From an uncultured Candidatus Saccharibacteria bacterium (GTDB lineage Bacteria > Patescibacteriota > WWE3 > 2-01-FULL-39-13): a stretch of DNA of 64,000 bases. This document shows positions 9,118 to 48,562 of this stretch, one piece after another. The position numbers were made by a program, and so were the translations under genes. The first letter of the stretch is position 1. The number at the start of each line of letters is the position of its first letter. Location: assembly GCA_965230915.1 (NCBI GenBank), contig OZ246395.1, positions 536,935 to 600,934 on the forward strand. Reading direction: 5' to 3'. The notes under the pieces were generated by a model. That model was given only the letters and a program-made list of their open reading frames with translations. It ran no database searches and had not been told where the DNA came from.

Positions 9118-10095
9118 ATGAAAACACAAAACTTTTACAAAAAATTCGTAGAGCTCTCGTCGAAAACCGGTATTCCAGTTAAAAATATAATCGATCTATT
9201 TTTAATAATCGGCGATAAAACAGAAATAGATAACCTAGATTTATCAACCCTAACAGGACTTTCAAAAACTTCGATTTCATTAATAGAAAAGGAATTTTAT
9301 TCTTTATTCAAACCAAAATCTAATAAGACCTCTTTGACAGAAAATGGATATAGGGTTTACATGTATTTAAGAGACTTAATATCGAAGGATAAGCTAGGCG
9401 ATCTAAACTTTGCAAATTCTATAATCGAAAATTCACTCCATGAAAAATATTCAAATGACAGGCCAGCTGTTGAACGCGATTTAGACCAAATTCTAGCAAC
9501 ATCAGAAACTGTCCAAAAACGCTCATATTTAATGGATTTACTCGCCGATATAAGAGATAAACGAGTTTTATTTTTAGGCGACGATGACTTCACCTCAATA
9601 GAAGTTGCATCGCTAGGTACGGCAGAAAAAATTACTGTAATTGATATTGATACAAGAATATTAAACACCATAAAAAAAGTTTCTGACACAGAAAAGCTAA
9701 ATATCGAAACGATAAAGTACGACGCCAAAGAATCTATCGGGAAAGAATTGTATAGCAAGTACGATGTAGTTTTTACAGATCCACCCTACACAGCTGCAGG
9801 CTTTGAGCTATTTTTATCAAGAGCAATTGATGTTTTAGACAAAAATAATAAGTCAGCTCGAATTTACATATGTTTTGGACATAGCGATTTATCAAAAGAG
9901 AGATTTATTCCAATTATTAAAACAATCGCGGATTGTGGCCTTTCTATAAGATATACATTTAGCAAACTTAATAAATATAAGGGTGCTGAATCTATTGGAA
10001 GCAACTCAGACTTATATATCTGTGAAGTTACTTCTAAAACTACTCCTACAATAAAAGGAAAATACAAAGAGAATATTTATACCAATGAATATTAA
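9118..10095 (+). CDS. DUF43/BpsA-like aminopropyltransferase (putative branched-chain polyamine synthase) with MTase-like fold
   Basis: 325 aa. LFLGDDDFTSIEVA matches the GDDD motif recalled for N4-bis(aminopropyl)spermidine synthase. VVFTDPPYT is a DPPY-type motif. A winged-helix-like N-terminus precedes a Rossmann-like C-terminus. Family assignment is from memory. Confidence 0.55.
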   Translation: MKTQNFYKKFVELSSKTGIPVKNIIDLFLIIGDKTEIDNLDLSTLTGLSKTSISLIEKEFYSLFKPKSNKTSLTENGYRVYMYLRDLISKDKLGDLNFANSIIENSLHEKYSNDRPAVERDLDQILATSETVQKRSYLMDLLADIRDKRVLFLGDDDFTSIEVASLGTAEKITVIDIDTRILNTIKKVSDTEKLNIETIKYDAKESIGKELYSKYDVVFTDPPYTAAGFELFLSRAIDVLDKNNKSARIYICFGHSDLSKERFIPIIKTIADCGLSIRYTFSKLNKYKGAESIGSNSDLYICEVTSKTTPTIKGKYKENIYTNEY

Positions 10096-10475
10096 TAATC
10101 TAGGACTTTAGTCTTAATTTCTGCTTTAGGATATGCTTCTTTCAATAATTTTATAAGGACTTCTAGGTCTGCTTCCGGAGAACAAGTTATAAGATCAAAA
10201 TGAACAAATTCATATTCCGGCCATGTATGGATAGCCAAATGCGATGCCGATAAAATATATACTATAGACAGTCCTCCTCCTGGAAATTCATGAAAACCAT
10301 CTTTAATGACTGTAACGTCAATTTTAGCCAATATATCTCTAAAAACCGCATCAATTGCTTCATATTTAAGTTCGTCTGCAGTAAGGTGATCGATTTCACC
10401 CACCAGATGTACATAAAATGGTCTATTCTCTGTATTCATGGGCATTATATTATGGGTTATACTGGGGAAAGTCAA
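10092..10475 (-). CDS. speH: S-adenosylmethionine decarboxylase proenzyme-like (SpeH/class 1b pyruvoyl decarboxylase)
   Basis: FHEFPGGGLSIVYILSASHLAIHTWPEYEFVHFDLITCS aligns with the SpeH core F.GP.GG.TGV.LLSESH..IHTWPE....D.FTC. The usual Glu before the processing Ser is Ala here (LSASH). The true start may be one of the internal Met (MPMN...). Confidence 0.8.
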   Translation of the reverse strand: MTFPSITHNIMPMNTENRPFYVHLVGEIDHLTADELKYEAIDAVFRDILAKIDVTVIKDGFHEFPGGGLSIVYILSASHLAIHTWPEYEFVHFDLITCSPEADLEVLIKLLKEAYPKAEIKTKVLDY

Positions 10476-26325: not shown

Positions 26326-29265
26326 TTATTCTATGCCGTGCAGATATGGAAAGAATGTGAACGACTTCTCGGGTTCATTTGGCTCGCAATTCAGGTCAGC
26401 GAGACGAGGATATTGATGAACCCAATATTTATCGCCCTCCAAAACTACCGTATCGCCAGCGCTATCCGCAATAACAAGAACAACCCCACCAGGAACCGCC
26501 GACCCAACGATGGTATAGTCGATACCCTCGACAGTTGGCGTCAATACAATGGCGAATGGATCTTCGCAAGTCGGATCAGCAAACAGCGGTGGTGCAGTCT
26601 CTACAACTGTGGGCTGAACGCCACAAACCGTGTGGTCGCCCAAATCGATAACCTGAGGCGAGTAGTCACTCGGCAAAGTATAAGTCGGAGCGTTAGCTAC
26701 GGCCAATACAACGGCGATGTTTGCTGTCGGATTTTCCGGGTACACCGAATAACTGATCTGATCAGTATCGTCGGGGACCTCAACCAAACCGACTTCGTTA
26801 CATGCCCCTGGCTCGATTACATCGAACAATGCCAATTTGGGCACCACAACAGTAGGCTTGAAAGTGCAATCAGGCGCCGCCGGGTAAGTATGACTCCATT
26901 GCGTATCACCTGTAAGAGTGAAAGCATTCGGATCAACCGATTCGCGCAACTCTGCACTAACAGTGACCGACTTGCTAGGTTCAACTTCACCGACATACGA
27001 ATAGCGAATGAAATCGCTATTATCGAAATTGATAGAGGCATCAACCTCGCAAGTCGGATCAACAAACTCAGGCGCAACCGTTTCGACTTCAATCGGTGGC
27101 ACAGAACAATCCGGGGCAACACTGAAATCATGAATCCACGTTGACGATCCAACAATCTCAAAGAAAGTCGGGTCGACAGAATTGCGCAATTCAGCGGTCA
27201 CAGTGACGCGCTCGCCTGCAGCAACCGAACCATCTGTGTCGTACTTGATAAAATCGTCTTCCGGAGTGATTACATCGGCGACAACAGAACAAGTTTCTTC
27301 AACAAACGTCGGTGCAGTTGCTGTTAACTGAGTCGGTTCGACAGTGCAATCGGGCGCTTCATCGAATGTGTGAGACCAAAGCTTAGGTTCCATAAGCGTA
27401 TAGCTTTCAGAATCCACCGATTGTCGCAATTGTGCTCCAACTTCGACGAACTGGCCTGCTGAAACCGTACCGGTAACTACATAAGACACAAAATCAGTGT
27501 CAGATGTAACAACCTGGGCCGGCGTTTCGCATGTCTGTTCTTCGAAAACTGGCGCTTCTGCCATCAGTTCGATCGGATCTACGCATTCAACAAAATCACC
27601 CAAATACACGGCAAACTGCCAATCTGGGTTGGTTGAAACAAAACCATCTTCGACTTCGTGTGTTACAACAACAAACCCTTCGATCGGATCGACAGGATCC
27701 ACCAAATAGGTAATGTGTTCTGTCGTGGCCGGAGTTACCGAGCCTTCAACACCACACACACCTTCAGGAATTATCGTAACTTGCGGATTCTCTGGCATCA
27801 CACTCACAGGACAATTGAGAGATTCAACCGTCACAAAAGTGTGGGACCAACTGATCTCTCCAACAGCCATCTTATTCTTGATGCTGGCTTTGAGACTCGC
27901 ATTCACTTCAACGGTACTACCTGGCGTTGTTTCTCCCATAACTTCGTAAACGAAGTCGTTGTCGGGGAAAGAAACCGACGCACTCTGCATGGAACATGTC
28001 GGTTCATTGAATGTCGGGTCGTCAGGTTCGACCGAGTCGGGTGCGAATGTGTATTTTACACACCCAATGGTCAAGTCCTGTATGATTCCGCCACCAAAAA
28101 CGCCACTTCCCAAAGCAAAGCCGACGGCCAAAGCATGAGCATCTGGATATGCATCCAAGATCTTATACATCTCGCCTTGGACTGGGTAACCCTGAGATGG
28201 GTAACCAATATTCGGCAACCCCGGGAAAGTAGTAGTGTTAATGGAATTACTCCACCAAACATCACCATAATAGCCGGGTTCATACGCCATATAGCCATCG
28301 AAAGTGCCATTGTTGTCGAGATCAACCTTAAGCTGAAGTCCTGCAGGGGGAGTAACCGAATAACCGCTGATAGCAGCATAAGTAAGTGACAAAGTTCCGG
28401 TAGTCCCGATTTCCTTCAAATGGAAGTTAATCGGGTAATAACCCTTTACCTTGTCCTGACCTGTAGTGCCATTTGTATGGATCAACAAACCTTGCGGCGA
28501 TGCCCCATTTTGCGCGACAAACTCGTAATAGCCCGACGTGCCGGTCTCTGTGTCGAGATCCCAACCCTGTCGGTTGCTAAAAGTTATCGGCTCAGCGTTA
28601 GTCACCTCGTCGCAGGCCAGAGGCTCAGAGACGAAATAGGTTGTCTTGCAGTCGAATGTGATCGACTTAAGCACTGAAGTGCCAGGCTGATATGATCCGT
28701 AAGAAACTCCATATGCCACAACCATGAGATTAGGATTGGCAGTAAGAATTTCATCAAGATCAACCTGATGCCGTGTCTCGTAAGGCTCGGCAGTTTGATT
28801 TGCGGCATTCGGAACGCCCAGATCTGTGCCTGTTCGCCACCAATAGCCGTCAAACACGCCCTTATTGTCGGGATCATTGTAAACCTGCTCCCAAACAAGA
28901 GTTGCACCAGGATCACCATCAGACCACCCAGTTACCGCAAGTTGATATGTCGCGGTACCGGTACGATCAAAATCGAGCGAGTCAATTTCAGAAAGAGGTA
29001 CATTGACCTCTTTCATCAAAAACACTTTCGACAGATTCTGCGGGTTCACCATCTCCAAGCCGTTAGGCGTGAACATGTACGAACCTTCAAATGTTCCGTT
29101 GTAATTGTTACTTACAACCCAGCCATCCAAAGCATAGGGTGTAACAATTACCTCAGAGTCTTCGCAGATTGCATCTCCCGGAAAGACCGCCTGCGCACTC
29201 CCATAGGACAAAACATTCATGAAAAGCGCGCATACCAAAATCCCCAATACCATCCTAAAACGCAT
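26326..29265 (-). CDS. large secreted Cys-containing tandem-repeat protein (adhesin-like), GC-rich
   Basis: Start placed at MRFRMVLGILVCALFMNVLSYGSAQA (signal peptide, AAAGGA RBS 8 nt upstream). The track ORF extends to 29328. At least four ~85-aa repeats share the pattern ...(T/Q)C(E/S)...DF..Y...G.......V.V.A.L..S.D......(W)SHT(F/Y)..APDC(T/S). Markedly GC-rich relative to the flanks. Confidence 0.75.
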   Translation of the reverse strand: MRFRMVLGILVCALFMNVLSYGSAQAVFPGDAICEDSEVIVTPYALDGWVVSNNYNGTFEGSYMFTPNGLEMVNPQNLSKVFLMKEVNVPLSEIDSLDFDRTGTATYQLAVTGWSDGDPGATLVWEQVYNDPDNKGVFDGYWWRTGTDLGVPNAANQTAEPYETRHQVDLDEILTANPNLMVVAYGVSYGSYQPGTSVLKSITFDCKTTYFVSEPLACDEVTNAEPITFSNRQGWDLDTETGTSGYYEFVAQNGASPQGLLIHTNGTTGQDKVKGYYPINFHLKEIGTTGTLSLTYAAISGYSVTPPAGLQLKVDLDNNGTFDGYMAYEPGYYGDVWWSNSINTTTFPGLPNIGYPSQGYPVQGEMYKILDAYPDAHALAVGFALGSGVFGGGIIQDLTIGCVKYTFAPDSVEPDDPTFNEPTCSMQSASVSFPDNDFVYEVMGETTPGSTVEVNASLKASIKNKMAVGEISWSHTFVTVESLNCPVSVMPENPQVTIIPEGVCGVEGSVTPATTEHITYLVDPVDPIEGFVVVTHEVEDGFVSTNPDWQFAVYLGDFVECVDPIELMAEAPVFEEQTCETPAQVVTSDTDFVSYVVTGTVSAGQFVEVGAQLRQSVDSESYTLMEPKLWSHTFDEAPDCTVEPTQLTATAPTFVEETCSVVADVITPEDDFIKYDTDGSVAAGERVTVTAELRNSVDPTFFEIVGSSTWIHDFSVAPDCSVPPIEVETVAPEFVDPTCEVDASINFDNSDFIRYSYVGEVEPSKSVTVSAELRESVDPNAFTLTGDTQWSHTYPAAPDCTFKPTVVVPKLALFDVIEPGACNEVGLVEVPDDTDQISYSVYPENPTANIAVVLAVANAPTYTLPSDYSPQVIDLGDHTVCGVQPTVVETAPPLFADPTCEDPFAIVLTPTVEGIDYTIVGSAVPGGVVLVIADSAGDTVVLEGDKYWVHQYPRLADLNCEPNEPEKSFTFFPYLHGIE

Positions 29266-29421
29266 AGCAAGATCCTTTCTGATCTTCAGTGAAAACGTAG
29301 TTTCGGCAACATCCGTCACTATCCCCATTCAGGAATTGATATCCGTCTTGTGTGAATACCAACTAGTAAGTCTTCGTCGACTTGCTAATAGTCTGCCTTA
29401 AAATCTCGCGTTTTTGCGAAA

Positions 29422-41092: not shown

Positions 41093-42661
41093 TTAGGCAA
41101 TTTTTAATTTACTAAAATCTAATGGATTATCCTGTCGAAATTCCAAATGTAACTTTACCGCTGTTTCTGCACGTTCGAATTGACGCCCCATATAAAAGGC
41201 ATTTCCTAAAGTTGAAACTGCTAAATCAGTATCAATCATAAAACTTAATTTGCGTGCTGCATTTTGTTCTTTACCGTCAATTTCCCACGATTTTAATTCA
41301 ACATTTCCGTCAGGAGAAATTAATTTCACTTTAATCATATCTTCTACAGTTTCGACAATTAAATTCCCACGTGGATCCCATTCGCAATATCCGCCATAGT
41401 TACTTAAAAGTTTTTCCATATCTGCGAAGTTATGTTCATATACATGTGCCATATTCGAAATTGTTATCATTGACCCCATTTCAACCATTAATTCATCTGC
41501 AATATTTTTTTGCAATTTACGAAGGGCAAATGCATTTAGCGGCCAAGCATTATACATATCATTGCTTCTAAAATAACAAGTCATCGTGAGTTTGCCTTGA
41601 TATATTTGGCATTGAATTAAAAATAAACATGGAATTTTTTTCGAAGGTCGTTGTGGGAAAATGTCCGTAAAAGTATTCCCTAAAAATGCCATCGCACCTT
41701 TGTCGTATGGAAAATTTTTTAATTTGCGAACGATCGCAACGGAAACCTGGTCAATACCTCCACCTTTATTAAAATATTTTTGAAAGCGATCAATTTTTAG
41801 CCACGGATAAATTTCTTTTAATTCTTTAATTTCTTTGTGAGCATAATTAAAAAGTCTTTCGCCGTAAGTGTAGTCTTCAGTATGTGGATCAGGATCAAAA
41901 AATCCTTTTATATAGTTATCCAGATCATCTTTATTAAATGGCATATATTCCGGGATATTCCACTTATCAGGGTTTTCTTCAGTTATAACTGCAGTCAAAT
42001 TTAAAATCTCTTTTAATTTATTTGAGGTGTCAGAAACATAATTTATAACAGGTTCGGATTCTAGTCCAAACATAGACACATGTTTTAAAATTGAAAGATA
42101 AGCTTCAGCTATTGTAGTTCGGCGAATTTTTATTAAGTCAATTTCAGATGGGTAAGTAGAAACTTGAGGCTTTGGAGGATCAGGGAATGTTTCGGAATCA
42201 GACCAAAGTTTTTCAAATTTGATTAATTCGATAGTAGTTTTTAGTTGAACCAATTTATCCGGACCACGCAAATCAATTAATTTAACATTTTCACGAAATT
42301 TATTTATGGCTTCTAGCGGAATTTCTTTTTCGATTTCGGCAGTATCATCACCGACAACTTTGTAATCTTCGGTGATTCCATCTCGCATTAATTTTACAAA
42401 TGCTTCACCTGATTCCATCAAATCATTTCCGCATAAATATATTGTATTTATAAATGGATTCGCCAAAACATTTCTTATTAAATAGTTGATTCCTTTTTTT
42501 GTGTAGAGTTGGCCGAGAATAGAATAATTTTCTTTTTCAACTAATCGTTCGATTGCTTCTTTTGGAGTCCATAAACATGCGATAGCGACTGATGATTCCA
42601 AGTTAGAAATTGTTAAGCGGTCTTTAAAATAAATTGGCCAAACTTCTGGTGCGTCACTCAT
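41093..42661 (-). CDS. thymidylate-synthase-family enzyme (ThyA-like core) with ~180-aa N-terminal extension of unknown function
   Basis: C-terminal ~340 aa carry TS motifs: IDQVSVAIVRKLKNFPYDKG, the catalytic-Cys region IPCLFLIQCQIYQGKLT..YFRSNDMYNAWPLNAFALRKL, and ISNMAHVYEHN. The N-terminal 180 aa lack DHFR motifs. Confidence 0.7.
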   Translation of the reverse strand: MSDAPEVWPIYFKDRLTISNLESSVAIACLWTPKEAIERLVEKENYSILGQLYTKKGINYLIRNVLANPFINTIYLCGNDLMESGEAFVKLMRDGITEDYKVVGDDTAEIEKEIPLEAINKFRENVKLIDLRGPDKLVQLKTTIELIKFEKLWSDSETFPDPPKPQVSTYPSEIDLIKIRRTTIAEAYLSILKHVSMFGLESEPVINYVSDTSNKLKEILNLTAVITEENPDKWNIPEYMPFNKDDLDNYIKGFFDPDPHTEDYTYGERLFNYAHKEIKELKEIYPWLKIDRFQKYFNKGGGIDQVSVAIVRKLKNFPYDKGAMAFLGNTFTDIFPQRPSKKIPCLFLIQCQIYQGKLTMTCYFRSNDMYNAWPLNAFALRKLQKNIADELMVEMGSMITISNMAHVYEHNFADMEKLLSNYGGYCEWDPRGNLIVETVEDMIKVKLISPDGNVELKSWEIDGKEQNAARKLSFMIDTDLAVSTLGNAFYMGRQFERAETAVKLHLEFRQDNPLDFSKLKIA

Positions 42662-42743
42662 CTATGGCAGTGTATATGAAAATTTTTCCTGTGTTAAGAA
42701 GTGATCATGAGATCGTCTCCTTAACACAGGAAGGTATTTGGAG

Positions 42744-43112
42744 CTATGCGGCAGCTCTTAGGGGTTCTTGCTCAAGAACTCTACATGCCATTGGAGAATG
42801 GTCGTCCTCAGGGTCGCCATTTTCCTCAAAGAGAGTCCCGCCATTTTCATTGGCGAAATTTTGAATTGCCTCAAGGGCATTGTGCCTTGCAGCATGTGTT
42901 AACCCCTCTCGCTCGAAGATTGCTACAGCCTGCAACATAGCTGGATTTGTACCTGGCGAATCATTCTCATTTTTCCTCGTCAGCAAAAAAATAAGGGCGG
43001 CACGCACAAGTTGCTTTGCAGGATCCCTTGGCTGCGTTTGCTGCATGATTTCACCTAGCGTTATTTCAGGGGTATCCTTTTTTGGAGCTTTACTCTTCTT
43101 GGAACTGCCCAT
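42744..43112 (-). CDS. hypothetical protein (122 aa), locally GC-rich
   Basis: AGGAG 9 nt upstream of the ATG. Composition is atypical for the window (Ala/Pro/Glu-rich, GC-rich codons). Confidence 0.45.
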   Translation of the reverse strand: MGSSKKSKAPKKDTPEITLGEIMQQTQPRDPAKQLVRAALIFLLTRKNENDSPGTNPAMLQAVAIFEREGLTHAARHNALEAIQNFANENGGTLFEENGDPEDDHSPMACRVLEQEPLRAAA

Positions 43113-43166: not shown

Positions 43167-43886
43167 TTATATCGTGGTTTTTTGCAAAATGAAGTAGTCA
43201 TTTAAGTTGTTATTTTTGCCATCGGCTGAAAATCGCGAGACCAATTCTAATCCGGTTGATTCTATAATCTTAGTCATTTCATCTTCACTATATATATGCA
43301 CATACCGATAGGCATCAGATTTATTCCATCCAATAATATAGTCGTTTTCTTCAAGCTCTAGATTCAAAAACTTCTCATTTTGAGGATCAAACCGTTCATC
43401 GCGGTTGTAATTCCATGTCGTAAAAACAAATATGCCATTAGGATTTAATAAATTTGCGACGTCACAGAACCATTTGCGGCGAAAGTCATAAGAGGGGATA
43501 TGATGAACAAGGCCAAAGGCAAAAACCAGGTCAAACTTCTTATTAATTTTTTCTAAATCAGTCAAAATATCCAACTGCTCAAAGTTGCCAGATCCGACGT
43601 CGTAATGTTTAGCAGGGGAGTTTAATAAAAATTTATCTGAGTCATAACCATAATATTCGTAATCTTCTAGGTTATGGTCCAATAAAAACTTCAAAAAACG
43701 GCCATTTCCGCAGCCTAAATCAGCAATTTCTTCAAATCCATCGAATCGACTCATTTCGACTAAAGTTTCCCAGACTTTTTCCCAACCTGGCCAGGCCGAT
43801 TGTCTGGTTTTGTCGAATTCTCCACCAATTTTTTGGTAAAAATCTTTATTTAACTGGATAATTTCATTAAATGCTCTAAAATTCAC
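43167..43886 (-). CDS. class I SAM-dependent methyltransferase
   Basis: Motif I DLGCGNGRFL and motif II-like LVFAFGLVHH. Confidence 0.8.
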   Translation of the reverse strand: MNFRAFNEIIQLNKDFYQKIGGEFDKTRQSAWPGWEKVWETLVEMSRFDGFEEIADLGCGNGRFLKFLLDHNLEDYEYYGYDSDKFLLNSPAKHYDVGSGNFEQLDILTDLEKINKKFDLVFAFGLVHHIPSYDFRRKWFCDVANLLNPNGIFVFTTWNYNRDERFDPQNEKFLNLELEENDYIIGWNKSDAYRYVHIYSEDEMTKIIESTGLELVSRFSADGKNNNLNDYFILQKTTI

Positions 43887-43890
43887 CGTA

Positions 43891-45663
43891 ATGGCTAAAA
43901 CCTACTATATAGACGTAAAATCGCATAAAGACTCACTGATTTCAATTATAGAAGAATTGGGCGAATTAGAAAGCACAACCGACCGTGATATAAGAAAAGT
44001 CTTTAGAAAGTATCCCAAAAACGACAATGGATTATTCAAAAAAAGCGATATCGCCTATGCATTTGAACAATTCGAAGAAGACGGTGAATTAGATTTAAGT
44101 ACTGAAAAATCTGACAAAGTTAAACAGATTCTAAAAATGAAAGCCACTCGAACAATTTCAGGAGTGACCCCGGTGACTGTTTTAACAAAACCATTCCCCT
44201 GCCCCGGCAAATGTATTTTTTGCCCGAATGACGTACGCATGCCAAAAAGCTATCTTTCAGATGAACCAGGCGCACAACGTGCAACTAGGAACCGTTTTGA
44301 TCCATATGCACAAACATACAACCGTTTGCTAGCTTACAAAGCAATGGGACATCCGACTGACAAAATTGAATTAATAATTCTTGGTGGAACATGGACTTCA
44401 TACCCCGAAACTTATCAAATTTGGTTTGTGAAAAGGTGTTTTGATGCAATGAATGATTTTTCACAAATAACAGCCGATGACATTTATGATTCCGAGCCCG
44501 ATACACCATTTGATGAAAATTCGCTCGAAGAAATACATGGCGAGAAAATTGATAAAAGTTATAACCTAGTTGTTTCTACAGCACTAATACCAAAACGTGA
44601 ACAAGCTAAAACTGAAACAGCAACGTGGGAAGAATTATTCGAATCACAAAATAAAAATGTTGATGGCGAAAATAGATGTGTCGGATTAGTTATCGAAACG
44701 CGCCCTGATGAAATAAACGAAACCGAAGTAATTCGAATTAGAAAACTTGGAGCAACTAAAACACAAATAGGATTCCAAAGCTTAAGCGACAAAGTTTTAA
44801 CTTTAAATAAACGAGGACACGATGTGCAAACAACTCGCGATGCCGTAAATCTTTTACGAAAAGCAGGATTTAAGATTCACGCGCACTGGATGCCAAATTT
44901 ATTTGGATCAACTCCCAAGCTCGATATCGAAGATTTCGAAAAAATGTTTACAGACGGCGACTTCATGCCTGATGAATTAAAAGTTTATCCATGTTCATTA
45001 ATAGAAAGTGCTGAACTTATGGTCTATTACAAAAATGGACTATGGCGAGCATACACCGAAGAAGAACTTTTAGAAGTTTTAAAAAACGTTTATAAAAATA
45101 CAGCTGAATATTGCCGTATAACTAGAATGATTCGAGATATCGGATCTCAAGACATTGTTACCGGAAACAAAAAAACAAATTTGCGCGAACTAGTCGAACG
45201 TGAACTTGCAAAAGAGAATGCAAAAATAAAAGAAATTCGTTACCGCGAAATTAAAAATAAAAAAGTTAAAAAAGATGATTTGGAAATAAAAGTGGTTGAA
45301 TACGAAACTTCGGTTTCTAAAGAATATTTTTTGCAATACATTACAAAAGAAAATTTAATTGCAGGATTCTTACGTTTATCACTTCCAAAAAATCATAGCG
45401 AACACTTTATAAGCGAATTAAAAGATTCAGCAATAATTCGCGAAGTTCACATTTACGGAGAAAGCGTTGAAATCGGAAACACACAAGAAGGTAAACCACA
45501 ACATTTAGGTTTGGGCAAAACATTAATTGCAAAAGCAGAAGAGCTCGCAATAAAAAATAATTTCAAAAAAATATCAGTAATTTCTTCGATCGGAACTCGT
45601 AATTATTATAAAAAGTTGGGATACGAATTAGAAGATTTATATCAAACTAAACTTCTCAGTTAA
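43891..45663 (+). CDS. Elp3-like radical-SAM + GNAT protein (tRNA wobble-uridine modification family)
   Basis: CPGKCIFCPN Cys cluster. The following block (RATRNRFDPYAQTYNRLLAYKAMGHPTDKIELIILGGTWTSYPETY) aligns with eukaryotic/archaeal Elp3 ([36 protein letters not shown]). C-terminal GNAT fold (ISVISSIGTRNYYKKLGYE). Confidence 0.8.
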   Translation: MAKTYYIDVKSHKDSLISIIEELGELESTTDRDIRKVFRKYPKNDNGLFKKSDIAYAFEQFEEDGELDLSTEKSDKVKQILKMKATRTISGVTPVTVLTKPFPCPGKCIFCPNDVRMPKSYLSDEPGAQRATRNRFDPYAQTYNRLLAYKAMGHPTDKIELIILGGTWTSYPETYQIWFVKRCFDAMNDFSQITADDIYDSEPDTPFDENSLEEIHGEKIDKSYNLVVSTALIPKREQAKTETATWEELFESQNKNVDGENRCVGLVIETRPDEINETEVIRIRKLGATKTQIGFQSLSDKVLTLNKRGHDVQTTRDAVNLLRKAGFKIHAHWMPNLFGSTPKLDIEDFEKMFTDGDFMPDELKVYPCSLIESAELMVYYKNGLWRAYTEEELLEVLKNVYKNTAEYCRITRMIRDIGSQDIVTGNKKTNLRELVERELAKENAKIKEIRYREIKNKKVKKDDLEIKVVEYETSVSKEYFLQYITKENLIAGFLRLSLPKNHSEHFISELKDSAIIREVHIYGESVEIGNTQEGKPQHLGLGKTLIAKAEELAIKNNFKKISVISSIGTRNYYKKLGYELEDLYQTKLLS

Positions 45664-46158
45664 TATACCTGCCCGCTTAATCAAATCGATTCCGCTAGTG
45701 TCTGTATGCTCTGCTTGATAATAAATTTCTTTTACTCCAGCTTGAATCAACGATTTTGCACATGTATAGCAAGGAGAATTTGTAATAAAAAAGATCATTC
45801 CATCAATTTTTAGTCCAAGCTTAGCGCATTTCGCAATCATATTCATTTCAGCATGAATCGAACACACTTTTTGAAATTCACGACCTTTTAAATTTTCGAT
45901 TTCACGAATACATAAACGTTTTCCATTTTCATCAAAATTTTGGCAATACATTTCACCTTTAACTGTTTCATTAAAAGATTTAATGTAAGTAAATTCGCCA
46001 TCAGATTTAATAAATTCATCATTAATATCCTTGTGAGATACATCAAACTGAATAACTCCTACGCATCCAACTTTATATCCGCATGATGATTTATTAGATA
46101 TACGTGAGGCTTTCGCCATAAATTCACTTTTTTGTTTTTCGTTAAGGGAAATTTCCAC
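45637..46158 (-). CDS. dCMP/CMP deaminase (zinc-dependent, ComEB-like)
   Basis: CSIHAEMNMI and PCYTCAKSL (the H(A)E ... PCxxC zinc motif). Confidence 0.8.
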   Translation of the reverse strand: MEISLNEKQKSEFMAKASRISNKSSCGYKVGCVGVIQFDVSHKDINDEFIKSDGEFTYIKSFNETVKGEMYCQNFDENGKRLCIREIENLKGREFQKVCSIHAEMNMIAKCAKLGLKIDGMIFFITNSPCYTCAKSLIQAGVKEIYYQAEHTDTSGIDLIKRAGILTEKFSLI

Positions 46159-46879: not shown

Positions 46880-47335
46880 TCAGAGGTTCTTACGCAATTC
46901 TTGCGCTAATTCTAAAGGAGGCATGGTGATATCCTGATAATTCCAAGTGTTAAGGCCTTCTTTATGTGGAAGCAAAAACATATGAGCGTGAGGAACACTT
47001 TTACTTGCCTTCATGCCTTTTGGAGCCCGCTGCAAAATCCAAACATTTTCTATATTTAAAACATCTCTTAATAATTTGATCCCAATTTTTGCTAATCGCT
47101 GCATGTCGGTCCATTCCTCTTCAGTAATTTCTTCGAACGATTCGACATGTCTTTTGGGAATAACCATTAAATGCCCGTCTATATATGGAAATAAATTCAC
47201 AGTTAAAACAGCATTGTCGTTGGTGGTTATAATATATTTTTCACGCAAATCGCAAAAAACACATTTACCGGTATTGGTCCAAATATCACCGTATGTTCCT
47301 TTTTTACGTGCATTATAATCGCTATAATCTTCCAT
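46880..47335 (-). CDS. HIT-superfamily nucleotide hydrolase/transferase
   Basis: CVFCDL, HLMVIPKRH and the histidine-triad-like VPHAHMFLLP. Confidence 0.7.
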   Translation of the reverse strand: MEDYSDYNARKKGTYGDIWTNTGKCVFCDLREKYIITTNDNAVLTVNLFPYIDGHLMVIPKRHVESFEEITEEEWTDMQRLAKIGIKLLRDVLNIENVWILQRAPKGMKASKSVPHAHMFLLPHKEGLNTWNYQDITMPPLELAQELRKNL

Positions 47336-47344
47336 TAGGCAGTT

Positions 47345-48562
47345 TTAGTCTTTCAGCGCAGTAAATTTCTCAGCTTCGCTCAAGACTTCTTTAAATAATT
47401 GACGAACACGAATTCCTGCAGCTTTTCTAATTAATTTGCTAGAAGATAAATTTGGCGACTGAGGAGGAACCATCACGATCTTGCCTCCCCAACTTTTCAC
47501 TTCATTCAATTCGGAATTCTCATCTATTTTATTCCACCCTTCGTCGACCGTAAAGAAAATATCCGGTTTTAGTTCTTTTAATATCGGAGTAACGGATTCG
47601 TCGTCAAAAATTACTATATAGTCGACGAATCCAAAAAATCCCATTAATTCTGCACGAGACCTCTCGTTAATAATCGGACGTCCCCTTCCCTTTTGCTTTC
47701 GAATAATTTTGTCAGAAGGTATAGCTAAAACTAAAGTGTCCCCTAATGAACGAGCGCGATTGTAAAAGCGAGCATGGCCTGCATGTAATAAATCACATGC
47801 CCCTGATGATAAAACGATTTTCTTTCCATTCCTTCTAAGCTTCTCGCCGAGAGATTTCACATCTGAACGTTTGATTAACTCTGCATAATATTTTCTAGAA
47901 AAAAGATTTAGATCGCTAGAATGTTCACCAAAATATAAACTTTCTTCACGAACACTTGTTTTTATTCCTGAAAACTTATTTTTTGACCAATTTCCTTTTG
48001 ATAAATCGATTGTAACTTTTCCAAAAAAATATTCGATTATTTCTTTTATTTTCAAATCGGCAACTCCATTTACAATACCTGCAGCCGATACAAACGGCCG
48101 GGCCTTAGGCTCTTTTATAATTCTTCCACCATATTTCTTAATCAATTTTTCTTCTGAAGGTTTCCTTAAATGACTTTTCCAATCCTGGCCGAGTGTATAA
48201 ACTACATCTGGCTTTAAAGCGCGTAAAATAGGCAAAATATCTTTTTTGTTCATATAAACCGTGTGATCGACAAAGTCGAAATACTCTAAAAGTTCAGCTC
48301 TGTTTTTTTGGTCGATTAGTGGAAAACCTTTACCACGCATTTCGCGATTTGATTTATTTGTAGCAACCCCGACAACCAATATATCTCCGGCTTGTTTTGC
48401 TTTTAGCAAATATAGGGCATGGCCACTGTGAATTAAGTCAAATGTTCCATATGTAAATACAATCTTTTTATTTTCTTTTTGTGAAAGTTTTTTAAGTGGA
48501 GATAAATCCCTAATATCTAAATGCTTTTTTAAGATGTCTTTCTCGTGGTCCACATCTGACAT
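47345..48562 (-). CDS. tandem cytidylyl/adenylyl-transferase-like protein (two HldE-C/TagD-like nucleotidyltransferase domains)
   Basis: Two copies of the (T/H)xGH nucleotidyltransferase motif, YGTFDLIHSGH and SGACDLLHAGH. Each is followed by a ...KG.GRP(L/I)I...RAEL..F.FVD... block as in the HldE C-terminal domain. Confidence 0.65.
   Translation of the reverse strand: MSDVDHEKDILKKHLDIRDLSPLKKLSQKENKKIVFTYGTFDLIHSGHALYLLKAKQAGDILVVGVATNKSNREMRGKGFPLIDQKNRAELLEYFDFVDHTVYMNKKDILPILRALKPDVVYTLGQDWKSHLRKPSEEKLIKKYGGRIIKEPKARPFVSAAGIVNGVADLKIKEIIEYFFGKVTIDLSKGNWSKNKFSGIKTSVREESLYFGEHSSDLNLFSRKYYAELIKRSDVKSLGEKLRRNGKKIVLSSGACDLLHAGHARFYNRARSLGDTLVLAIPSDKIIRKQKGRGRPIINERSRAELMGFFGFVDYIVIFDDESVTPILKELKPDIFFTVDEGWNKIDENSELNEVKSWGGKIVMVPPQSPNLSSSKLIRKAAGIRVRQLFKEVLSEAEKFTALKD

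What the first reader, a model, noticed from the sequence alone, without database searches (positions are those of the whole stretch)
41093..42661. Thymidylate-synthase-fold enzyme fused to an unassigned ~180-aa N-terminal domain, clustered with dCMP deaminase and a SAM-MTase
The C-terminal ~340 residues contain the TS catalytic Cys region (PCLFLIQCQIYQ), the RSND and PLNAFA blocks (Asn retained, suggesting a dUMP-type substrate) and the terminal ...AHVYEHN. A typical ThyA is ~265 aa. The 522-aa total length mimics protozoan DHFR-TS, but the N-terminal domain lacks DHFR motifs. A dCMP deaminase (45637-46158) and a SAM-dependent methyltransferase (43167-43886) lie within 4 kb. The enzyme could be an ordinary but extended ThyA, or a TS-family hydroxymethylase/methylase acting on a different pyrimidine, as in phage hypermodification pathways.
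Basis: partly seen in the sequence, partly recalled or inferred. Interest (0 to 1): 0.55.

Follow-up and report, generated by a model that had tools for sequence, protein, structure and literature searches.

The report
Three-domain thymidylate synthase of CPR/DPANN
This gene most likely encodes the cell's ordinary dTMP-making enzyme, but in an unusual, uncharacterised form that is widespread in ultra-small bacteria and archaea: a methanogen-type thymidylate synthase core between a cobalamin-protein-like (MtrA-like) domain and a domain of unknown function (DUF4346).

Summary
The 522-aa ORF (41093-42661, minus strand) and all quoted motifs are real. It has three domains, not two:
- an N-terminal MtrA-like Rossmann domain (~5-165; profile vs PDB 5LAA, E=4.5e-20);
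- a methanogen-type thymidylate synthase core (~172-422);
- a C-terminal PterinBD-DUF4346 domain (~424-516) with no solved structural relative.

Catalytic Cys345, Arg365, Asp368, Tyr266 and the uracil-specifying Asn376 are invariant in 71 relatives.

The architecture is a large housekeeping family: about 206 representatives at 50% identity. It is found across CPR/Patescibacteria and DPANN archaea, including cultured Minisyncoccus archaeiphilus.

A dCMP deaminase gene lies within 10 kb in 53 of 83 loci, usually directly upstream or overlapping. SHMT and FolD sometimes follow. Rare relatives are additionally fused to thymidylate kinase or to dCMP deaminase. These findings point to dUMP -> dTMP, not phage-style hypermodification.

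The nearby SAM methyltransferase is Trm9-like and travels with Elp3 (tRNA modification). It is not linked to the synthase.

The MtrA-like domain has lost the cobalt-ligating His and its Glu partner but keeps part of the nucleotide-tail pocket. What the two accessory domains do is unknown. I found no paper on the fusion.

Verdict: a new, uncharacterised variant of a known enzyme; moderately interesting.

The parts
41093..42661 (-). Whole 522-aa ORF: MtrA-like / methanogen-type TS / DUF4346 fusion
   Evidence: ORF; domains; AF2 mean pLDDT 86.7; 91-30% identical relatives
42167..42649 (-). N-terminal MtrA-like Rossmann-type domain (res 5-165). Conserved W31, G50, Q51, Y53, S/T54, K55, G57, R63, N64, G78, D80, S84
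   Evidence: PF04208 42.3 bits (> GA 25); NF002126 1.1e-20; family profile vs PDB 5LAA E=4.5e-20 over the whole domain; conservation. The MtrA cobalt ligand His84 is Ser84 or a gap, and Glu54 is Lys55 (PMC4915002)
41396..42148 (-). Methanogen-type thymidylate synthase core (res 172-422)
   Evidence: TIGR03283 2e-39, aligned 3-200 of 201; PF00303 50.9 bits (> GA 24.3); Foldseek hits to ThyA / TS-fold enzymes, E~1e-13; profile vs PDB ThyA E~1e-17
41627..41629 (-). Codon of the catalytic nucleophile Cys345 (= E. coli ThyA Cys146)
   Evidence: Alignment to ThyA; 71/71 conserved; codon TGT
41534..41536 (-). Codon of Asn376 (= E. coli Asn177), the pyrimidine-specificity residue: Asn for uracil, Asp in dCMP hydroxymethylase
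   Evidence: 71/71 Asn; codon AAT
41753..41839 (-). Clade-specific helical insertion in the TS core (res 275-303), absent from most relatives
   Evidence: Alignment A1; AF2 helices 278-284 and 290-296
41114..41392 (-). C-terminal PterinBD-DUF4346 domain (res 424-516), beta-beta-beta-alpha-alpha. Conserved D429, R431, G452, A498, E499, Q510, D511
   Evidence: PF14251 25.5 bits in the window (below GA 29.6) but 47-66 bits in aligned relatives. AF2 pLDDT 87.7. No PDB relative by sequence or by fold (best E=0.05)
45637..46158 (-). dCMP deaminase, the conserved functional partner that supplies dUMP
   Evidence: PF00383; PDB dCMP deaminases 1.2e-15; neighbour in 53/83 loci, directly upstream/overlapping in about 35; fused in-frame in P0295
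46880..48562 (-). Conserved upstream pair of the ancestral operon: tandem RfaE-domain-II-like nucleotidyltransferase (47345-48562) and HIT protein (46880-47335). Relation to dTMP synthesis unknown
   Evidence: present with the fusion in 45 and 38 of 83 loci; same order in L002, L005, L006
43167..45663 (.). Lineage-specific insertion, NOT part of the TS system: divergent pair of a Trm9-like SAM methyltransferase (43167-43886, -) and Elp3 (43891-45663, +)
   Evidence: Elp3 TIGR01211 493 bits; MTase vs PDB 5cm2_Z Trm9 E=1.3e-6; the pair occurs only in 11-12 of 83 loci, always together

Best explanation
The ORF most likely encodes the organism's housekeeping thymidylate synthase in a three-domain form.

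Inferred pathway: the neighbouring dCMP deaminase makes dUMP. The central methanogen-type TS core attacks C6 of dUMP with Cys345. It holds the uracil through Asn376 and the phosphate through Arg365 and Lys321. It transfers a one-carbon unit from a methylene-tetrahydropterin to C5, giving dTMP. The donor is most likely 5,10-methylene-THF made by SHMT.

Shown here: the domain composition, the conservation of catalytic residues, and the conserved genomic and fusion links to dCMP deaminase, SHMT/FolD and thymidylate kinase.

Inferred about the accessory domains: the flanking MtrA-like and DUF4346 domains are about as conserved as the core and are present in all complete relatives found. I therefore take them to be integral to catalysis. 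They may bind or close over the pterin cofactor, or supply phosphate-binding residues that this short TS core lacks. I do not take them to be a corrinoid methyl carrier, because the cobalt ligand is gone.
For: Domains:
-.

Catalytic residues conserved in 71 CPR+DPANN sequences:
- Cys345, Arg365, Asn367, Asp368, Asn376, Tyr266/Gly267 and Gln305 are 71/71.
- Tyr408 is 66/71.
- Mapping to E. coli ThyA comes.

Context:
- dCMP deaminase lies in 53/83 loci, mostly directly upstream or overlapping.
- SHMT is directly downstream and FolD follows in L006, L016 and L048; SHMT and FolD follow 3-5 kb downstream in L042 and L081; SHMT alone is directly downstream in L079.

Rosetta-stone fusions:
- MtrA-TS-DUF4346-thymidylate kinase in L068.
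- MtrA-TS-DUF4346-dCMP deaminase in P0295.

Housekeeping distribution:
- 124 genome hits across CPR and DPANN, including a cultured strain.
- 206 representatives at E<=1e-30.

Accessory domains under selection:
- Mean column identity is N 0.50, TS 0.58, C 0.51.
- The one apparent stand-alone core was a frameshifted fragment.

Literature:
- In 12 CPR MAGs, KEGG thyA co-occurs with folA in 4 of 5, and thyX-bearing MAGs lack folA. This is the canonical DHF-producing pattern (PMC11974145, Table S5).
Against: - No member has been assayed. I found no paper on the fusion or on DUF4346.
- The window protein scores below NCBI's trusted cutoff for TIGR03283 (135 vs 174.55 bits).
- Several classical ThyA phosphate and active-site residues are not conserved. 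The Arg127 position is Gly in 50/71. The His207 position is His in only 37/71. No Arg21 equivalent is identifiable.
- From memory, the methanogen-type enzyme itself has only been shown to catalyse partial reactions, so the C1 donor is an assumption.
- The window contains no SHMT, FolD or FolA.
- It is not verified that the 'thyA' of the cited MAGs is the fusion type.
- The AF2 inter-domain arrangement is uncertain (pTM 0.58), so the proposed role of the accessory domains is unsupported by structure.
Confidence: 0.75

Rival explanations
1. Non-canonical bifunctional enzyme. The MtrA-like Rossmann domain, alone or with DUF4346, reduces the dihydrofolate produced by the TS core. This would be a DHFR-TS analogue that makes FolA dispensable.
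For: - The size and layout are the same as protozoan DHFR-TS, with an alpha/beta nucleotide-binding-type N-domain.
- No FolA-like ORF lies within +/-10 kb of the fusion in the cellular loci, nor in the window.
- folA is detected in only 54.8% of 4581 CPR genomes, versus ~80% for glyA and folD (PMC11974145).
Against: - There is no similarity to any reductase family or structure.
- There is no Gly-rich dinucleotide motif after beta1.
- In the 12 CPR MAGs tabulated, thyA-positive genomes mostly have folA (4/5).
- The additional fused domains seen are kinase and deaminase, never anything redox-related.
Confidence: 0.08
2. Corrinoid- or other cofactor-dependent thymidylate synthase. The MtrA-like domain still carries a corrinoid (His-off) or another nucleotide-tailed cofactor. 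This cofactor delivers the methyl group or the reducing equivalents, so the chemistry differs from ThyA and no DHF is formed.
For: - Homology to the cobalamin-binding MtrA is genuine (E=4.5e-20).
- Three of the residues that hold the cobalamin nucleotide tail in MtrA (Thr53, Gly57, Asn64; PMC4915002) are conserved as S/T54, G57 and N64.
- The conserved residues cluster in the loops after beta2 and beta3, which carry Glu54 and His84 in MtrA.
- The Pfam name indicates that DUF4346 occurs with pterin-binding proteins.
- From memory, methanogen-type TS has never been reconstituted with CH2-THF or CH2-H4MPT.
Against: - The cobalt ligand His84 is Ser or deleted, its H-bond partner Glu54 is Lys, and the GAIPF(Y/F)xEN motif is absent.
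- The TS core keeps the Asp368 (= Asp169) pterin contact and Tyr266.
- SHMT lies directly after the fusion gene in several loci, which argues for methylene-THF.
- From general knowledge, CPR and DPANN are not known to make corrinoids.
Confidence: 0.07
3. TS-family hydroxymethylase or other pyrimidine-modifying enzyme feeding a DNA hypermodification pathway together with the neighbouring methyltransferase.
For: - The TS fold cannot by sequence alone be told apart from dUMP hydroxymethylase.
- The best Foldseek hit is a phage TS-fold dCMP hydroxylase (9iqu, TM 0.77 on the target).
- Four large IMG/VR contigs carry distant full-length relatives.
Against: - Asn, not Asp, sits at the specificity position in 71/71.
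- The gene is housekeeping, and the methyltransferase is absent from most loci and is tied to Elp3.
- Fusions to thymidylate kinase and to dCMP deaminase exist.
- SHMT/FolD are neighbours in relatives.
- No full-length match exists in 50,697 GenBank phage records.
- No glycosyl- or amino-transferase or other hypermodification gene was found next to it in the window.
Confidence: 0.03
4. Plain TS whose accessory domains are regulatory or structural only, for example oligomerisation or allosteric nucleotide sensing, and do not take part in catalysis.
For: - From memory, stand-alone methanogen-type TS cores of ~200 aa exist (TIGR03283 model length 201), so the core can fold alone.
- AF2 gives confident separate domains joined by low-confidence linkers at res ~160-175 and 428-432.
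Against: - The accessory domains are as conserved as the core.
- They are never lost across two domains of life at ~30% identity.
- Invariant polar and basic residues (Q51, Y53, R63, D429, R431) suggest a ligand or active-site contact.
Confidence: 0.15

Closest known systems
Methanogen-type thymidylate synthase (NCBIfam TIGR03283, MJ0757-like)
   Same: - It is the best-matching family for the core in all 25 members tested, aligned end to end (3-200 of 201).
- It is a short TS core with the Cys/RSxD/Asn catalytic set.
   Different: - The known family is a ~200-aa single-domain protein of methanogens. Here the core is flanked by two further domains and occurs in CPR bacteria and DPANN archaea.
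- The window protein scores 135 bits, below the 174.55-bit trusted cutoff.
Classical ThyA (PF00303 / TIGR03284; E. coli, L. casei)
   Same: Same fold (Foldseek E~1e-13) and the same catalytic Cys146, Arg166, Ser167, Asp169, Asn177, Tyr94 and Tyr209 equivalents.
   Different: - Identity is only ~15-18%.
- There is no identifiable Arg21.
- The Arg127 position is Gly in this clade.
- His147 is Leu.
- The free C-terminus that closes over folate is replaced by a linker to DUF4346.
- It has two extra domains.
Bifunctional DHFR-TS of protozoa and plants
   Same: About 520 aa, with an alpha/beta N-terminal domain fused to a TS domain. Foldseek aligns only the TS part.
   Different: - The N-domain is MtrA-like, not DHFR. 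No DHFR was hit by Pfam, NCBIfam or a PDB profile search.
- It has an additional C-terminal domain.
MtrA, the corrinoid subunit of methyl-H4MPT:CoM methyltransferase (PF04208; PDB 5LAA, 5L8X, 8Q3V)
   Same: - Homologous over the whole soluble domain (E=4.5e-20).
- The nucleotide-tail pocket residues Thr53, Gly57 and Asn64 are retained as S/T54, G57 and N64.
   Different: - It lacks His84, Glu54 and the GAIPF(Y/F)xEN segment.
- It has no membrane anchor and no mtr operon.
- It is fused to a TS.
Phage TS-fold pyrimidine modifiers (T4 dCMP hydroxymethylase; dUMP hydroxymethylases; phage HY126 dCMP hydroxylase AfhB, PDB 9IQU/9IQC)
   Same: Short TS fold. AfhB is the top Foldseek hit (TM 0.77 normalised to the target).
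   Different: - Asn instead of Asp at the specificity position.
- The setting is a cellular housekeeping operon.
- Accessory domains are present.
- No flavin-related evidence was found.

Membership tests
Thymidylate synthase superfamily (Pfam PF00303) | HMM match above the gathering score | tested here: met
   50.9 bits vs cutoff 24.3
Thymidylate synthase superfamily (Pfam PF00303) | Catalytic Cys in a P-C motif, the R-S-x-D motif and the general-base Tyr (E. coli C146, R166, S167, D169, Y94) | tested here: met
   C345, R365, D368 and Y266 conserved 71/71; S366 is S54/N17
Thymidylate synthase superfamily (Pfam PF00303) | Asn at the E. coli 177 position (dUMP rather than dCMP substrate) | tested here: met
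   N376, 71/71; T4 gp42 has Asp at this column (gp42 sequence recalled from memory)
Thymidylate synthase superfamily (Pfam PF00303) | Full four-arginine phosphate site (R21, R126', R127', R166) | tested here: not met
   R166 is kept. The R126 position is K in the window (R52/K18 in the family). The R127 position is G in the window (G50/R21). No R21 equivalent aligns
Thymidylate synthase superfamily (Pfam PF00303) | dUMP + CH2-THF -> dTMP + DHF activity | not testable with these tools
   No assay possible; no published assay found
Methanogen-type TS (NCBIfam TIGR03283, equivalog) | Score at or above the trusted cutoff (174.55 bits) | tested here: not met
   133-135 bits for the window protein; best family member E=3.1e-56
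Methanogen-type TS (NCBIfam TIGR03283, equivalog) | End-to-end alignment to the 201-position model | tested here: met
   Model positions 3-200 matched
Methanogen-type TS (NCBIfam TIGR03283, equivalog) | Single-domain ~200-aa protein | tested here: not met
   Three domains, 522 aa
MtrA (Pfam PF04208) | HMM / structure-sequence match over the soluble domain | tested here: met
   42.3 bits vs cutoff 25; PDB 5LAA E=4.5e-20
MtrA (Pfam PF04208) | Cobalt-ligating His84, its partner Glu54, and the GAIPF(Y/F)xEN segment | tested here: not met
   The His84 position is a gap or Ser84 (S65/71). Glu54 is Lys55 (K62/71). The segment reads AxIDKEIP (features from PMC4915002)
MtrA (Pfam PF04208) | Cobalamin binding; membership of an mtr operon / membrane anchor | tested here: not met
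   The operon and anchor are absent. Cobalamin binding itself is not testable here
PterinBD-DUF4346 (Pfam PF14251) | HMM match above the gathering score (29.6 bits) | tested here: inconclusive
   The window scores 25.5 bits. Aligned relatives score 47-66 bits, so membership holds by homology
Bifunctional DHFR-TS | A DHFR (PF00186-type) domain N-terminal to TS | tested here: not met
   No DHFR hit in Pfam, NCBIfam or the PDB profile search
Phage pyrimidine hydroxymethylase / hypermodification module | Phage genomic context with downstream modification enzymes; Asp for cytosine where dCMP is the substrate | tested here: not met
   The window is cellular CPR-type, with DnaE, ClpB, GatCAB and tRNAs. 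The residue is Asn. There is no full-length phage homologue in GenBank

The most novel reading that the evidence does not exclude
The MtrA-like and DUF4346 domains form a cofactor-handling module that makes this enzyme mechanistically different from ThyA and ThyX. The difference could be a different one-carbon carrier or reductant, such as a His-off corrinoid, a non-folate pterin, or an internal recycling of dihydropterin. By extension, this would explain why the methanogen-type synthase has never been reconstituted, and how some CPR/DPANN cells might make dTMP without FolA.
Probability: 0.15. Interest if true: 0.85.

Novelty: new variant of a known kind. Interest (0 to 1): 0.55.

Why it matters
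- Thymidylate synthesis is essential. It is a classical drug target and a marker used in metabolic reconstructions. If the main TS of two huge radiations of ultra-small symbionts (CPR and DPANN) is a three-domain protein with two uncharacterised, strongly conserved domains, the textbook ThyA/ThyX dichotomy is incomplete for a large part of microbial diversity.
- The fusion gives a concrete handle on an old loose end, the cofactor and mechanism of the methanogen-type TS. It names two candidate partner domains that can be tested biochemically.
- There is a practical annotation issue. The N-domain hits MtrA models, so these genes could be counted as 'MtrA' in surveys or in ancestral reconstructions of methanogenesis. 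For example, arCOG-based inference of MtrA in the archaeal ancestor (PMC13473441) could be affected. I did not verify that this happens.
- Sharing of the same architecture between CPR bacteria and DPANN archaea also points to inter-domain transfer of a core housekeeping gene.

Tried and rejected
1. Searching the big protein collection with the N-domain alone returned only four gene fragments on ~1-kb contigs, so no stand-alone relatives were seen.
2. A TS-core profile search again returned almost only full fusions. The single 219-aa 'stand-alone' hit (P0148) is a fragment at a contig end, followed by a 47-aa DUF4346 piece. I therefore could not test whether unfused methanogen TS genes sit next to separate MtrA-like or DUF4346 genes.
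3. hhalign of the N-domain against the C-domain shows they are unrelated.
4. The DUF4346 profile against PDB sequences gave nothing at E<=10. The Foldseek best hit was E=0.05, to ribosomal proteins and fragments of actin-like folds, which I treat as noise.
This is uninformative about whole genomes.
6. Per-genome folA data (Table S13 of PMC11974145) was cut off in the held copy, so no clade-level folA/fusion profile was possible.
7. I looked for basic residues compensating for the lost Arg127 equivalent. K193, R15, K56 and R493 track the Gly322 state, but the split coincides with one phylogenetic division, so this is not evidence.
8. Literature searches for DUF4346, MtrA + thymidylate synthase, 'methanogen type', MJ0757 and AfhB found nothing relevant. 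The viral 'mtrA' auxiliary genes in PMC10904782 are genuine Methanobrevibacter-type MtrA, unrelated to this fusion.
Full report
**Observation.** The window has a 522-aa ATG-to-TAA ORF at 41093-42661 on the minus strand.
- The stated neighbours are real. ORF 45637-46158(-) is a dCMP-deaminase-type zinc deaminase (PF00383; best solved relatives are dCMP deaminases, E=1.2e-15). ORF 43167-43886(-) is a class I SAM methyltransferase.
- The window as a whole is a low-GC (0.365) cellular genome segment. It carries DnaE, ClpB, GatCAB, HtpX, LemA, TsaD/TsaE, a class I (Trp/Tyr-type) aminoacyl-tRNA synthetase, ribosomal protein L19 and five tRNAs. This is typical of Patescibacteria/CPR.
- The exact protein is also found on a Logan contig. 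The nearest genome relatives are Patescibacteria MAGs: 84% identity to one labelled Saccharibacteria and 61-68% to WWE3.

**Anatomy: three domains, not two.**
- Residues ~5-145(165) match MtrA, the corrinoid-binding subunit of the methanogen methyltransferase. The Pfam PF04208 score is 42.3 bits, above its cutoff, and NF002126 gives 1.1e-20. PDB 5LAA matches at 4.6e-9 with the single sequence. It matches at 4.5e-20 over the whole domain with a 25-sequence family profile, and no DHFR or other reductase appears.
- Residues ~172-422 are a thymidylate synthase core of the 'methanogen type'. TIGR03283 gives 2e-39, aligned 3-200 of 201, and is the best family for all 25 members tested. The window protein (135 bits) is below the 174.55-bit equivalog cutoff. 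PF00303 is above its cutoff.
- Residues ~424-516 match PterinBD-DUF4346. The score is 25.5 bits, sub-threshold, in the window but 47-66 bits in aligned relatives.
- AlphaFold2 on a 36-sequence alignment gives mean pLDDT 86.7. It shows confident domains and low-confidence linkers at ~160-175 and 428-432, and pTM 0.58, so the mutual arrangement is uncertain.
- Foldseek against the PDB aligns only the TS core. The top hit is the short TS-fold phage dCMP hydroxylase AfhB (9IQU, TM 0.77 on the target), followed by classical ThyA and the TS half of DHFR-TS.
- The C-domain modelled alone (pLDDT 87.7, beta-beta-beta-alpha-alpha) has no solved relative by sequence (nothing at E<=10) or by fold (best E=0.05). 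It is unrelated to the N-domain.
- Part of the extra length in this clade is a 29-residue helical insertion at 275-303.

**Catalytic residues.**
- In an alignment of 71 full-length sequences from CPR and DPANN genomes, the following are 71/71: Cys345 (E. coli Cys146), Arg365 (Arg166), Asn367, Asp368 (Asp169), Asn376 (Asn177), Tyr266/Gly267 (Tyr94/Gly95) and Gln305. Tyr408 (Tyr209) is 66/71.
- Asn at the 177 position is the uracil-type state. dCMP hydroxymethylase has Asp there.
- Not everything is classical. The Arg126 position is Lys in the window (R52/K18). The Arg127 position is Gly (G50/R21). The His207 position is His in only 37/71. No Arg21 equivalent can be aligned.

**The MtrA-like domain.**
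- Wagner et al. (PMC4915002) define cobalamin binding in MtrA by several features. These are His84 as the cobalt ligand, Glu54 as its H-bond partner and a conserved GAIPF(Y/F)xEN segment. The nucleotide tail is held through Asp17, Lys52, Thr53, Gly57 and Asn64.
- In this family His84 falls in a two-residue gap, or is Ser84 in an ungapped reading (S65/71). Glu54 is Lys55 (K62/71). The segment reads AxIDKEIP.
- Thr53, Gly57 and Asn64 are retained as S/T54, G57 (71/71) and N64 (68/71).
- The most conserved residues are W31, G50, Q51, Y53, G57, R63, G78, D80 and S84. Most lie in or next to the loops after beta2 and beta3, which carry Glu54 and His84 in MtrA.
- So a ligand or interface site is conserved, but the cobalt ligation is not.

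**Distribution.**
- The three-domain protein is a large family. The word-indexed searches found 456 and 509 clusters at 90% identity. Nearly all are 450-550 aa with the same Pfam architecture, and they are named 'thymidylate synthase', 'hypothetical' or 'DUF4346 domain-containing' where named at all.
- An exhaustive phmmer scan of 1.84 billion representatives gives 206 at E<=1e-30.
- In one-genome-per-species GTDB contigs there are 124 relatives, matched end to end. They come from these groups:
  - CPR: WWE3, Dojka-, Collier-, Shapiro- and Kerfeldbacteria, and Paceibacterota;
  - the cultured Minisyncoccus archaeiphilus PMX.108;
  - DPANN archaea: Micrarchaeota, Pace- and Woesearchaeota, and Nanobdellota.
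- Mean column identity is similar in the three domains (0.50, 0.58, 0.51). The only apparent stand-alone core was a broken gene.

**Context.**
- Across 83 loci with up to 10 kb of flank, dCMP deaminase is present in 53. In about 35 it lies immediately upstream on the same strand, often overlapping by a few bases.
- A tandem RfaE-domain-II-like nucleotidyltransferase and a HIT protein precede it in 45 and 38 loci.
- SHMT lies directly downstream, followed by FolD, in L006, L016 and L048. In L042 and L081 SHMT and FolD follow 3-5 kb downstream, and in L079 SHMT alone is directly downstream.
- In the window the same ancestral order survives: nucleotidyltransferase 47345-48562, HIT 46880-47335, dCMP deaminase 45637-46158, then TS. 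It is interrupted by a YflT-like gene, by a 122-aa high-GC ORF, and by the divergent pair Elp3 (43891-45663) / methyltransferase (43167-43886).
- That pair occurs only in the WWE3-like clade and always together (11-12 of 83 loci). The methyltransferase matches solved structures only weakly; its two best hits, both at E about 1e-6, are a phosphoethanolamine N-methyltransferase and the tRNA methyltransferase Trm9 (5CM2). It therefore belongs with Elp3 (tRNA U34 modification), not with the synthase.
- Two rare 'Rosetta stone' proteins bracket the reaction.
  - An archaeal MAG (L068) encodes MtrA-TS-DUF4346-thymidylate kinase in one 746-aa ORF.
  - A groundwater contig encodes MtrA-TS-DUF4346-dCMP deaminase (P0295, 733 aa, a complete gene inside its contig).
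- No fusion to DHFR or to any redox domain was seen.
- DPANN and Paceibacterota neighbourhoods are uninformative housekeeping genes.

**Phage reading.**
- No GenBank phage record covers more than 47% of the protein. The hits are ordinary phage TS cores at 23-31% identity.
- IMG/VR holds four large contigs (80-189 kb) with full-length relatives at 24-25% identity among ORFans, and 53 contigs with only short TS-like cores.
- This does not change the cellular, housekeeping character of the window gene.

**Mechanism.**
- The best-supported explanation is a thymidylate synthase acting on dUMP supplied by the adjacent deaminase, with covalent catalysis through Cys345. The likely donor is methylene-THF from SHMT.
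- A published table of 12 CPR MAGs shows thyA with folA in 4 of 5, and thyX without folA. This is the canonical pattern for a DHF-producing enzyme (PMC11974145 Table S5). I could not verify that those thyA genes are the fusion type.
- folA is found in 54.8% of 4581 CPR genomes, against ~80% for glyA and folD.
- What the accessory domains do is inferred, not shown. Their conservation and constant presence argue for a catalytic or cofactor-binding role, for example replacing the folate-closing C-terminus and the missing arginines of classical ThyA.
- Rival readings cannot be excluded with these tools and are given low probabilities: an internal dihydrofolate reductase, a corrinoid-dependent chemistry, or pure regulation.

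**Comparison and novelty.**
- The core works like, and is homologous to, ThyA and especially the methanogen-type TS. The protein fails the equivalog cutoff and the single-domain definition of TIGR03283.
- The N-domain is a member of the MtrA fold family but fails MtrA's defining cobalt-ligand features.
- The protein is not a DHFR-TS.
- The architecture is recorded implicitly in databases (precomputed Pfam strings, the 'thymidylate synthase' name), but I found no paper describing or testing it. I therefore rate it a new, uncharacterised variant of a known kind of enzyme.
- Interest is moderate. The function is ordinary. The form is unexpected and widespread, and it bears on an unresolved question about archaeal-type thymidylate synthases.

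Noticed in passing
window 43167-45663: Elp3 (radical-SAM/GNAT, TIGR01211 493 bits) and a Trm9-like SAM methyltransferase are divergently transcribed with start codons 4 nt apart. The pair is inserted between dCMP deaminase and TS only in the WWE3-like clade. This suggests an (m)cm5U34-type tRNA modification module in a CPR bacterium.
   Followed up: partly
window 42686-43112: A 122-aa ORF (42744-43112, minus strand) has GC 0.48 against 0.365 for the window and no family hit. It is seen only in this contig. It is followed 12 nt later by a 13-bp-stem hairpin (42686-42732) and an A5T4 run. It is probably a recently acquired insert with its own terminator, just upstream of the TS gene.
   Followed up: partly
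window 26326-29328: A 1000-aa ORF (minus strand) has GC 0.484, far above its surroundings. It has a signal-peptide-like N-terminus, is rich in V/T/P/G/D, and has no Pfam or NCBIfam hit. It explains the GC bump at 26-30 kb, which is not rRNA.
   Followed up: partly
window 46880-48562, and L002, L005, L006 and others: A tandem RfaE-domain-II-like nucleotidyltransferase (TIGR02199 213 bits, two stretches) and a HIT / ATP-adenylyltransferase-like protein precede dCMP deaminase-TS in 38-45 of 83 loci. Their connection with dTMP synthesis is unexplained.
   Followed up: partly
L068 4186-6426; P0295 (L149 572-2773): These are four-domain relatives. L068, from an archaeal MAG, is MtrA-TS-DUF4346-thymidylate kinase. 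P0295 is MtrA-TS-DUF4346-dCMP deaminase on a low-coverage 3-kb groundwater contig.
   Followed up: yes
L062 11778-12731 (minus strand): A 317-aa stand-alone TS-like paralogue (PCLQ, WRSRD, an Asn in MNVY) lies right next to the three-domain gene and a dCMP deaminase, on an 867-kb Patescibacteria contig.
   Followed up: partly
L092-L095 (IMG/VR contigs of 80-189 kb): Full-length relatives at 24-25% identity (TS + DUF4346 by Pfam, with a divergent N-domain) sit among ORFans on contigs classed as viral. They could be phages of CPR/DPANN or misclassified cellular contigs.
   Followed up: partly
window 9118-10475: A BpsA-like branched-chain polyamine synthase (PF01861, 4e-43) lies next to an AdoMet decarboxylase. 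This is a polyamine module in a CPR genome.
   Followed up: no
family alignment, window residues 321-322: The E. coli Arg126/Arg127 pair is 'RR' in DPANN and Paceibacterota members. It is 'R/K-G' in the WWE3/Microgenomatia-type clade. There, basic residues appear instead at positions 193, 15, 56 and 493. This is confounded by phylogeny.
   Followed up: partly
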